Source: the human T2T-CHM13v2.0 reference genome, Homo sapiens
Direction: 5' to 3' (one strand)
DNA length: 64,000 bases
Assembly: GCF_009914755.1 (NCBI RefSeq)
Contig: NC_060944.1
The notes under the pieces are model-generated. The model was not told the DNA's origin, did no database searches, and saw nothing but the letters and a program-made list of their open reading frames with translations. The position numbers and the translations under genes were made by a program. Shown one piece after another: positions 14,911 to 15,265 of the stretch; the first letter of the stretch is position 1, and every line of letters begins with the position of its first letter.

Positions 14911-15265
14911 GAGCCCACGCCTCTGTGCCTCAGGTGCAGTGGGTCTCTGAGCCCACGCCTCTGTGCCTCAGGTGCAGTGGGTCTCTGAGCCCACGTCTCT
15001 GTGCCTCAGGTGCAGTGGGTCTCTGAGCCCATGTCCTGTCTCTGAGCCCACGTCTCTGTGCCTCAGGTGCAGTGGGTCTCTGAGCCCACGTCTCTGTGCC
15101 TCAGGTGCAGTGGGTCTCTGAGCCCACGTCTCTGTGCCTCAGGTGCAGTGGGTCTCTGAGCCCACATCTGTGTGCCTCAGGTGCAGTGGGTCTCTGAGCC
15201 CACGCCTCTGTGCCTCAGGTGCAGTGGGTCTCTGAGCCCACGTCTCTGTGCCTCAGGTGCAGTGG
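14911..15265 (+). repeat. 38-bp tandem array (9 copies plus one 19-bp half unit) whose last copy is the NTSR1 exon-3 acceptor
   Basis: gagcccacg(t/c)ctctgtgcctcaggtgcagtgggtctct at 14911, 14949, 14987, 15044, 15082, 15120, 15158, 15196 and 15234; related degenerate motifs at ~14700-14910. Confidence 0.95.

What the first reader, a model, noticed from the sequence alone, without database searches (positions are those of the whole stretch)
14911..15265. NTSR1 exon-3 acceptor is the last unit of a 38-bp array: eight decoy 3' splice sites, each leading to an immediate stop
Seen: the unit spans a possible branch A (ctgAg, 21 nt before the AG), a short pyrimidine tract, CAG and the first 9 nt of exon 3 (GTGCAGTGG). 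AGs end at 14933, 14971, 15009, 15066, 15104, 15142, 15180, 15218 and 15256 (the real one). Only the last copy continues gtggtcatc; the others read gtgggtctctga. Joining exon 2 (ending ...cta c) to any decoy gives cgt gca gtg ggt ctc TGA = R-A-V-G-L-stop, whichever copy is used. Assuming the known 418-aa protein, that is a ~310-aa receptor ending at the start of TM6. The stop is at least ~110 nt upstream of the exon 3/4 junction, so nonsense-mediated decay is expected (established rule). Inference: the spliceosome must pick the ninth of nine nearly identical acceptors, so copy number could tune NTSR1 expression or a 5-TM isoform. A 5-TM splice variant is known for the rodent paralogue NTS2.
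Basis: partly seen in the sequence, partly recalled or inferred. Interest (0 to 1): 0.85.

Follow-up and report, generated by a model that had tools for sequence, protein, structure and literature searches.

The report
Minisatellite repeats the NTSR1 exon-3 acceptor
A 38-base tandem repeat in the human neurotensin receptor 1 gene ends inside exon 3, so the intron holds eight near-perfect copies of that exon's splice acceptor; this mirrors known repeats that copy splice donors, and whether the copies are used or vary in number is untested.

Summary
Nine copies of a 38-bp unit lie at 14905-15265, broken once by a 19-bp half-unit. Each carries the same acceptor; the ninth is the annotated NTSR1 exon-3 acceptor. 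Four of the eight decoy units match the real unit at 38 of 38 bases. Joining exon 2 to any decoy gives a 310-aa product, with the stop 112-397 nt before the last exon junction.

The decoys match the real site from -29 to +9, but what follows them looks like intron (2nd-7th percentile of real exon starts), while the real site is followed by exon-like sequence (43rd). Five stronger unused pseudo-acceptors lie elsewhere in the same intron.

Most likely this is a boundary-spanning minisatellite whose decoys are silent or leak a little into decay. Donor-side counterparts are published for F7, ABCA7, IFI6 and CBS. I found no acceptor-side case and no paper on this array. Copy-number variation and decoy use could not be tested here. 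A stable 5-TM form would come more plausibly from exon-3 skipping (317 aa, stop in the last exon).

The parts
11221..11422 (+). NTSR1 exon 2 (TM5 and third intracellular loop). It ends in codon phase 1, and its donor is weak by the matrix built here (7th percentile).
   Evidence: Annotation given
13900..14670 (+). Old dispersed repeat that abuts the minisatellite. I take it for a LINE-1 3' part from recall. Genome copies are 69-75% identical.
   Evidence: 9601 first-look candidates, 40 scored, 42 matches
14672..14904 (+). Older, more diverged part of the minisatellite: 19-22-bp units of the GTCTCTGAGCCCATGTCTC type, seen by TRF as periods of 19, 22, 60 and 79 at 81-100% match.
14905..14942 (+). 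38-bp unit 1, decoy acceptor with AG ending at 14933; 4 differences from the real unit.
14943..14980 (+). Unit 2, decoy AG ending at 14971; 1 difference.
14981..15018 (+). Unit 3, decoy AG ending at 15009; identical to the real unit at 38 of 38 bases.
15019..15037 (+). 19-bp half-unit without an acceptor; it breaks the 38-bp period.
15038..15151 (+). Units 4-6, decoy AGs ending at 15066, 15104 and 15142; all three identical to the real unit.
15152..15189 (+). Unit 7, decoy AG ending at 15180; 2 differences, the weakest decoy (7.57 bits, 28th percentile).
15190..15227 (+). Unit 8, decoy AG ending at 15218; 1 difference. This is the decoy nearest the exon: using it would lengthen exon 3 by 38 nt, with the stop ending at 15235.
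15228..15265 (+). Unit 9: candidate branch A at 15235, short pyrimidine tract, authentic AG ending at 15256, and the first 9 nt of exon 3.
   Evidence: annotation
15257..15347 (+). NTSR1 exon 3 (start of TM6). Its first 38 nt are exon-like by 5-mer composition, and its donor is weak (10th percentile).

Best explanation
This is a minisatellite whose last monomer spans the intron 2 / exon 3 boundary of NTSR1. An older array of 19-22-bp units lay just upstream of exon 3. A 38-bp segment (one such unit, the acceptor and the first 9 exon bases) was then amplified in tandem to nine copies. Each copy therefore carries a candidate branch A, a short pyrimidine tract and a CAG.

The eight upstream copies are pseudo-acceptors. 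They equal the real site in core strength but are followed by more repeat, which is intron-like and rich in TCTCT. Only the last copy is followed by exon sequence and lies closest to the exon-3 donor. Inferred mechanism: exon definition, through exon-bound activators and the donor 91 nt downstream, directs U2AF and U2 to the exon-adjacent unit. Any leak, most likely to the nearest decoy or two, gives a transcript with an early stop that is removed by nonsense-mediated decay.

Shown here: the anatomy, the equal core scores, the contrast in downstream context, and the frame consequences. Inferred: the order of amplification, silence or low use of the decoys, the role of exon definition, and decay of the products.
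For: Anatomy. The unit occurs nowhere else in this genome as far as the search sees (4 places, all inside the array). The window is rich in other minisatellites (28 TRF rows), so such an array is ordinary for this region.

Core strength: the real site and four decoys score 8.89 bits, the 42nd percentile of 378 chr20 acceptors.

Context: the 38 nt after each decoy score -0.25 to -0.44 on an exon-versus-intron 5-mer scale. That is the 2nd-7th percentile of 352 real exon starts and the 21st-42nd of 276 intronic pseudo-acceptor contexts. The real exon start scores +0.115, the 43rd and 87th percentiles.

Pseudo-sites are normally ignored: 5 AGs elsewhere in intron 2 score 10.1-14.4 bits and are not annotated as used.

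The exon-3 start is ancestral: 67 of 120 listed vertebrate NTSR1-like proteins carry VLR directly before the AV(V/I/L)..AF motif. The array therefore copied a pre-existing boundary.

Published donor-side counterparts behave this way. In F7 intron 7, a 37-bp minisatellite's first unit spans the donor and its identical pseudo-sites are silent. In IFI6 and CBS only the two nearest pseudo-sites are used (abstract, Introduction and Discussion of PMC1557585). In ABCA7, retention of one 25-bp unit makes 2 +/- 1% of transcripts and carries a premature stop (passages of PMC5954066).
Against: There are no RNA data, so silence of the decoys is assumed from the single RefSeq mRNA and from analogy. The 5-mer scale is crude: it was trained on 45 kb of exon and 118 kb of intron from 20 gene-dense chr20 loci, and it mixes coding bias with splicing signals. 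A decoy-defined exon would still contain the true exon 3 only 38-323 nt downstream, so exon-bound activators could reach the nearest decoys. Both flanking donors are weak (7th and 10th percentile), which makes exon 3 a fragile exon where competition could matter. Early globin duplication experiments, cited in the Discussion of PMC1557585, gave conflicting answers on which copy of a duplicated site is used.
Confidence: 0.6

Rival explanations
1. One reading: the array is a functional dial. Decoys capture a meaningful share of splicing events, the products are degraded or give a 5-TM receptor, and inherited copy number sets NTSR1 output.
For: Four decoys are identical to the real site over 38 bases. 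Every decoy gives a stop at least 112 nt before the last junction. Both flanking donors are weak. For the donor-side ABCA7 repeat, length correlates with lower expression and with skipping of the neighbouring exon.
Against: The sequence after each decoy is intron-like. Stronger pseudo-acceptors in the same intron are ignored. There is no alternative RefSeq transcript and no protein with the decoy tail among the 120 listed. In ABCA7, unit retention itself did not change with repeat length. A table in PMC9090808 (one passage seen) lists NTSR1 as lower (-2.0), not higher, in cells with a variant decay factor, and flags uORF and long 3'UTR rather than alternative splicing. That is weak evidence from one cell type. 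Polymorphism is unknown.
Confidence: 0.2
2. The array acts mainly by promoting exon-3 skipping. Many competing branch-site and pyrimidine-tract copies, or bound repressors, weaken recognition of the short exon 3. The result is a decay-resistant mRNA for a 317-aa 5-TM protein.
For: Skipping the 91-nt exon 3 shifts the frame and stops 38 nt into the last exon (317 aa), which escapes the 50-55-nt rule. TCTCT is 22 times denser in the array than in the rest of the window (25 sites in 594 nt); that this motif is a PTB-type binding site is recalled. Repeat length tracks skipping of the adjacent exon in ABCA7, and distance-dependent exon 7 skipping was seen in F7 constructs.
Against: No exon-3-skipped transcript is annotated. 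None of the 10 models read in full showed an exon 2 to exon 4 join. All of this rests on analogy.
Confidence: 0.1
3. Recursive-splice rescue: each unit reads CAG|GT, so splicing to a decoy would regenerate a donor and a second step would reach the real acceptor, making decoy use harmless.
For: In the unspliced RNA the junction in each unit scores as a donor at the 16th percentile, above both real NTSR1 donors in the window.
Against: After ligation the upstream three bases come from exon 2. The regenerated site then scores -0.26 bits, the 1st percentile of 366 real donors, and 52% of all GTs score as high. Intron 2 is only 3.8 kb, whereas recursive sites are known from very long introns (recalled).
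Confidence: 0.02
4. The array works at the DNA level, for example as a cluster of nine CAGGTG E-boxes or a methylation-sensitive element, and its overlap with the acceptor is incidental.
For: There are nine CAGGTG sites at about 38-bp spacing, 15.2 per kb against 0.9 in the rest of the window, and one CpG in most units.
Against: RefSeq lists no functional element here; the nearest is an enhancer at 18072-18851. The hotspot 13-mer is absent from the array (0 of 12 window matches fall in it). No binding data were available.
Confidence: 0.05

Closest known systems
F7 intron 7 37-bp minisatellite (PMC1557585; abstract, Introduction and Discussion read)
   Same: Unit size is almost the same (37 against 38 bp). 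The terminal monomer spans an exon-intron boundary, taking in 4 exon bases there and 9 here. The authentic splice site is reiterated as identical pseudo-sites, and the exon-adjacent copy is the authentic one. Alleles of 5-9 repeats are reported there, and nine copies are present here.
   Different: F7 reiterates the donor and NTSR1 the acceptor, with its branch site and pyrimidine tract. In F7, silence of the pseudo-sites and their competence once the authentic site is destroyed were shown with 50 constructs; nothing has been tested for NTSR1. The 5'-to-3' scanning proposed there would favour the wrong (first) copy here, so a different rule must apply.
ABCA7 intron 18 25-bp VNTR (PMC5954066; passages read)
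   Same: The repeat begins at a canonical splice site. Use of the next unit's site adds one unit and a premature stop, and the product is subject to decay. It is a precedent for repeat length affecting expression and skipping of the neighbouring exon.
   Different: It is donor-side and much longer and more variable (hundreds of bases to kilobases). A disease association and isoform measurements exist for it.
IFI6 (6-16) intron 2, CBS intron 13, LMNB2 and PDGF minisatellites (as listed in the Introduction of PMC1557585; original papers not seen)
   Same: These are minisatellites whose first monomer spans an exon-intron boundary. Either only the authentic site is used, or the authentic site plus the two nearest pseudo-sites.
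   Different: All are donor-side. I did not read the primary reports.
Unproductive splicing coupled to nonsense-mediated decay (recalled concept)
   Same: An alternative splice site would introduce a stop more than 50-55 nt before the last junction.
   Different: That class is defined by documented, usually regulated, use of the alternative site. No such use is documented here.
Rat vNTS2, a 5-TM variant of the paralogue (review table in PMC3477067; primary paper seen only as a reference)
   Same: A neurotensin-receptor message truncated after TM5.
   Different: It is in a different gene and species. How it arises I did not read; no repeat is known to me there (recalled). It is reported as functional, whereas an NTSR1 counterpart is hypothetical.
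Tandem (NAGNAG-type) acceptors
   Same: Every unit has a second AG 6 nt downstream. Using it at the real site would give an in-frame 416-aa product.
   Different: That AG scores at the 2nd-3rd percentile. The array's copies are 38 nt apart and each has its own branch site.

Membership tests
Minisatellite reiterating a splice site across an exon-intron boundary (F7 / IFI6 / CBS / ABCA7 class) | Tandem array of units of roughly 10-100 bp | tested here: met
   TRF finds a 38-bp period, 3.2 + 6.0 copies at 96-98% match
Minisatellite reiterating a splice site across an exon-intron boundary (F7 / IFI6 / CBS / ABCA7 class) | The terminal monomer contains the authentic splice junction plus a few exon bases | tested here: met
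   The last unit, 15228-15265, covers -29 to +9 of the annotated exon-3 acceptor
Minisatellite reiterating a splice site across an exon-intron boundary (F7 / IFI6 / CBS / ABCA7 class) | Pseudo-sites identical or nearly identical to the authentic site | tested here: met
   4 of 8 decoy units are identical over 38 bases; the others differ at 1, 1, 2 and 4 positions. Scores are 7.57-8.89 bits against 8.89 for the real site
Minisatellite reiterating a splice site across an exon-intron boundary (F7 / IFI6 / CBS / ABCA7 class) | The reiterated site is the donor (true of every described member I saw) | tested here: not met
   Here it is the acceptor with its branch site and pyrimidine tract, so I file it as a mirror variant and not a plain member
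Minisatellite reiterating a splice site across an exon-intron boundary (F7 / IFI6 / CBS / ABCA7 class) | Pseudo-sites silent or used at a low level, nearest ones first | not testable with these tools
   No RNA reads were available. Only indirect evidence: one RefSeq mRNA and 0 of 120 proteins with the decoy tail
VNTR (copy number variable among people) | Different copy numbers in different haplotypes | not testable with these tools
   Only one human genome was on hand, and supplements of VNTR catalogues were closed
Splicing coupled to nonsense-mediated decay | Stop codon more than 50-55 nt upstream of the last exon-exon junction | tested here: met
   112-397 nt for the eight decoys; the rule itself is recalled
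Splicing coupled to nonsense-mediated decay | The alternative junction is observed, and it rises when decay is blocked | not testable with these tools
   No reads. The one passage found lists NTSR1 as lower in decay-factor-variant cells
Recursive splice site | A competent donor is regenerated after the first ligation | tested here: not met
   The regenerated site scores -0.26 bits, the 1st percentile of real donors
Truncated 5-TM GPCR isoform (vNTS2-like) | A transcript or protein ending after TM5 is documented | tested here: inconclusive
   Predicted products are 310 aa (decoy) or 317 aa (exon-3 skip). None was found among the 120 listed proteins of 131-416 aa, but clustering at 90% identity and the 3124 unscored sample-only candidates weaken that blank

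The most novel reading that the evidence does not exclude
The array is a copy-number-variable 'acceptor sponge'. The number of identical branch-site, tract and AG modules in front of the short, weakly flanked exon 3 would set the share of NTSR1 pre-mRNA that is spliced productively. The rest would be lost through decoy use and decay, or diverted by exon-3 skipping into a decay-resistant 317-aa 5-TM receptor. That would give a heritable, graded control of a drug-target GPCR. It would also be the first natural acceptor-side system in which up to nine identical 3' splice sites compete, allowing a direct test of scanning against exon definition in 3' splice-site choice.
Probability: 0.15. Interest if true: 0.7.

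Novelty: new variant of a known kind. Interest (0 to 1): 0.45.

Why it matters
First, it is a ready-made natural substrate for an old question: how the spliceosome chooses among identical 3' splice sites. It complements the F7 donor model. The 5'-to-3' scanning proposed for donors would pick the wrong copy here.

Second, NTSR1 is studied in cancer and psychiatry, and an unrecognised repeat at a coding exon boundary could carry expression or splicing effects that SNP-based studies miss.

Third, there is a practical point, which is inference. Gain or loss of one 38-bp unit can be aligned so that it overlaps the canonical acceptor and the first 9 coding bases. It would then be called a splice-site or frameshift variant although the allele keeps an intact acceptor. 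Short RNA reads cannot tell decoy from real junctions unless they extend at least 10 nt past the junction.

If the decoys prove silent and the copy number fixed, the array is a curiosity of an ordinary subtelomeric minisatellite.

Tried and rejected
Recursive splicing was rejected: the regenerated donor scores at the 1st percentile.

RNA structure as the discriminator is not robust. In a global fold with 150-nt span the candidate branch A of the last unit is 0.87 unpaired, against 0.08 or less in 7 of 8 decoys and 0.68 at 15180. With local folding at span 40 the last unit (0.69) does not stand out: six decoys give 0.53-0.70 and two give 0.08 and 0.32. It stands out only moderately at spans 80 and 150 (0.62 and 0.54). 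The whole 5-base branch motif is at most 0.06 unpaired everywhere. The inverted-repeat tool found 0 pairs of 8 bases or more.

A dispersed-repeat origin for the unit was rejected. The 114-nt query matched only inside the array. The older part has only weak (69-71%) similarity to one chr11 locus.

A recombination-hotspot 13-mer is absent from the array.

Coding potential was rejected. Only short ORFs of 59 aa or less lie within the array on either strand; the 131-aa minus-strand ORF that one search lists at 15253-15648 only touches the array's last 13 bases. The 38-bp period rotates the frame.

Protein databases: an exon-1 query found 271 proteins at E <= 1e-30 among 561 candidates, of which 120 were listed; 3124 sample-only candidates were left out. 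None of the 120 has the decoy tail. Draft primate models were read: chimpanzee lacks exon 2, gibbon has a stretch I read as Alu-like from recall, and macaque differs before exon 3. I first thought the macaque model might show that the array is absent there. A tblastn in a script showed that the model extends only about 20 nt upstream of exon 3 after a frameshifted exon 2, so it says nothing about the array. No ape or other mammalian DNA was reachable, so the array could not be dated.

NTSR1 with VNTR returned 6 papers, with 'splice variant' 101, with 'tandem repeat' 19 and with 'nonsense-mediated' 14. 'Neurotensin receptor' with minisatellite returned 0. None describes this array, as far as listings and the passages I opened show. 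Three general searches gave the donor-side cases and no acceptor-side case; a fourth gave nothing I used, from its listing alone. Supplementary tables of VNTR, eQTL and sQTL catalogues, which may list this locus, were closed.

The rule of the first AG after the branch point, the distance dependence of exonic enhancers, PTB motifs, the E-box, the 50-55-nt decay rule and the 1997 NTSR1 gene-structure paper are recalled and come from no call.

Full report
WHAT IS THERE. Between 14905 and 15265 the plus strand carries nine copies of a 38-bp unit. Each unit runs from 29 nt before a CAG to 9 nt after it. The AGs end at 14933, 14971, 15009, 15066, 15104, 15142, 15180, 15218 and 15256. The last is the annotated acceptor of NTSR1 exon 3. 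The 15-mer across the junction occurs 9 times, against 0.78 expected, and 0 of 100 shuffles reached 9. Against the last unit, the eight upstream units differ at 4, 1, 0, 0, 0, 0, 2 and 1 positions, listed 5' to 3'. A 19-bp half-unit at 15019-15037 interrupts the array and explains the one 57-nt step. All eight upstream copies continue with the start of the next unit. Only the ninth continues with exon sequence.

The 38-bp array is the young, 96-98% identical, 3' part of a longer minisatellite of 19-22-bp units. That minisatellite starts near 14672, directly after an old dispersed repeat. The first half of the 38-bp unit is one such older unit. The unit was found nowhere else in this genome. 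The window as a whole is rich in minisatellites (28 TRF rows), as fits its place about 1.6 Mb from the end of chromosome 20 (contig length).

CONSEQUENCES IN SILICO. Exon 1 codes for 238 aa and exon 2 ends in phase 1. A script join of exon 2 to any of the eight decoys reads R-A-V-G-L-stop, giving 310 aa. The stop ends 112 to 397 nt before the end of exon 3, which is the last exon junction. By the recalled 50-55-nt rule, such messages are candidates for nonsense-mediated decay.

Two further outcomes were not in the finding. Skipping the 91-nt exon 3 gives 317 aa with the stop 38 nt into the last exon, which the rule would spare. Using the AG 6 nt inside exon 3 gives an in-frame 416-aa product, but that AG is weak (3rd percentile).

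HOW STRONG ARE THE SITES. I built position-weight matrices from 378 acceptors and 366 GT donors of RefSeq Select mRNAs in twenty exon-dense 9.9-kb chr20 stretches. Percentiles are against the training set itself. The real acceptor scores 8.89 bits, the 42nd percentile. Four decoys have the identical 23-mer, three score 8.54 (38th) and one 7.57 (28th). Within the window that such scores see, the decoys are as good as the real site.

This is not unusual in itself. Two percent of all 30,991 AGs in the sample score as high. In NTSR1 intron 2, five AGs outside the array score 10.1-14.4 bits. What is unusual is the exact reiteration next to the exon. None of 346 sampled chr20 acceptors had even one exact copy of its own 15-mer within 500 nt upstream. 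Two of 353 donors had one copy of their 12-mer downstream.

WHAT SETS THE LAST COPY APART. I scored the 38 nt after each AG on an exon-versus-intron 5-mer scale. The scale was trained on 360 internal exons and 232 introns of the same loci, and the reference distributions came from split halves. The real exon start scores +0.115, the 43rd percentile of 352 real exon starts. The eight decoy contexts score -0.25 to -0.44, the 2nd-7th percentile, which is typical of the sequence after 276 intronic pseudo-acceptors. The scale is crude and partly reflects coding bias, but the contrast is clear.

RNA folding did not give a robust difference. In every unit the only candidate branch A's within 29 nt of the AG are at 21 and 15 nt from the terminal G (read). 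An AG lies just upstream of them, so each acceptor must use a branch site in its own unit. This is an inference from the recalled rule that the first AG after the branch point is used.

THE JUNCTION ALSO LOOKS LIKE A DONOR. Each unit reads CAG|GT. In place, this scores as a donor at the 16th percentile. That is above the real intron-2 donor (7th) and the exon-3 donor (10th). After ligation to exon 2, however, the regenerated site falls to the 1st percentile. A recursive second step that would repair decoy use is therefore unlikely.

WHAT IS KNOWN. No paper on this array turned up (with passages). The same arrangement on the donor side is well described.

For F7 intron 7, I read the abstract, Introduction and Discussion of PMC1557585. 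A polymorphic 37-bp minisatellite has a first monomer that spans the exon 7 donor. Its identical pseudo-sites are functional but silent, and the authors propose 5'-to-3' scanning. The Introduction lists IFI6 and CBS, where the two nearest pseudo-sites are used, and LMNB2 and PDGF, where none is.

For ABCA7, I read passages of PMC5954066. A 25-bp repeat begins at the exon 18 donor. Retention of one unit makes 2 +/- 1% of transcripts and brings a premature stop. Repeat length correlates with lower expression and with skipping of the next exon, but not with unit retention.

In all these cases the authentic site is the copy next to the exon, as it is here. My searches found no acceptor-side case. 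That is a limit of ten text searches, not proof of absence.

MOST LIKELY READING. This is a boundary-spanning minisatellite whose upstream acceptor copies are pseudo-sites. Exon definition selects the exon-adjacent copy, and any leak goes to the nearest decoys and is degraded (confidence 0.6). One passage lists NTSR1 as lower, not higher, in cells with a variant decay factor, with uORF and long 3'UTR given as its decay features (PMC9090808). That is weak evidence either way. An effect through exon-3 skipping (0.1) would be the more plausible source of a stable 5-TM protein.

LIMITS. Only one human genome was available, with no RNA reads and no other mammalian DNA. The supplements of repeat catalogues were closed. 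Copy-number variation, age and actual use of the decoys therefore remain open.

VERDICT. This is a new, acceptor-side variant of a known kind of boundary-spanning minisatellite. It is of moderate interest (0.45) as a natural model for 3' splice-site choice and as a possible hidden variant in a much-studied receptor gene.

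Noticed in passing
window 11590-12951: A (CTCC)n tract of about 1.36 kb (346 copies, 75% match) sits in NTSR1 intron 2, starting 168 nt after the weak exon-2 donor. 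The strongest pseudo-acceptors of the intron (12.0-14.4 bits at 12742, 12761 and 12800) lie at its 3' end.
   Followed up: partly
window 11420-11428 and 15345-15353: Both donors flanking the array's intron and exon are weak by the matrix built here: the intron-2 donor is at the 7th percentile and the exon-3 donor at the 10th. Exon 3 (91 nt) may therefore depend heavily on exonic enhancers.
   Followed up: partly
window 14905-15265: Each 38-bp unit is bounded by AG| on its 5' side and |GT on its 3' side. One or more whole units could thus in principle be spliced in as 38n-nt pseudo-exons. The in-place donor score (16th percentile) exceeds both real NTSR1 donors in the window.
   Followed up: partly
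window 14672-15265: TCTCT occurs 25 times in 594 nt, 22 times the density in the rest of the window. CAGGTG occurs 9 times. The first is recalled as a PTB-type motif and the second as an E-box; neither was tested.
   Followed up: no
window 13900-14670: An old dispersed repeat (genome copies 69-75% identical; I take it for a LINE-1 3' part from recall) ends exactly where the minisatellite begins. Only 13851-13959 of it is listed as masked in the annotation file, and the minisatellite itself is not listed as masked.
   Followed up: partly
window 3967-4101: Three perfect copies (100% match) of a 45-bp unit lie in NTSR1 intron 1, which suggests a very recent tandem duplication.
   Followed up: no
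window 33934-35322: Two sizeable minisatellites (19 bp x 21.6 copies at 33939-34335; 24 bp x 24.8 copies at 34722-35322) lie just beyond the 5' end of LINC00659 (33849, minus strand).
   Followed up: no
window 24366-24712: An (AAAG)n / (AGAAGGAA)n tract lies about 4.6 kb past the NTSR1 3' end. It may be the tetranucleotide polymorphism reported near this gene in 1997 (recalled, not checked).
   Followed up: no
L019 and L020 (chr20 65562496 plus strand; 65785825 minus strand): Two of 353 sampled chr20 donors have one exact copy of their own 12-mer within 500 nt downstream. They may be small donor-side duplications of the F7 type.
   Followed up: no
proteins P0001, P0002, P0005: Older chimpanzee, gibbon and macaque NTSR1 gene models are all defective around exons 2-3: exon 2 is missing, a stretch I read as Alu-like from recall is inserted, or exon 2 is frameshifted with a 20-nt upstream extension of exon 3 that uses the CTGAG AG. 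This hints that the region was hard to assemble or model.
   Followed up: partly
NTSR1 intron, place not given (PMC10675921, one passage): A paper reports a novel antisense transcript (InSETG-5) inside an NTSR1 intron. I could not tell whether it overlaps the array.
   Followed up: no
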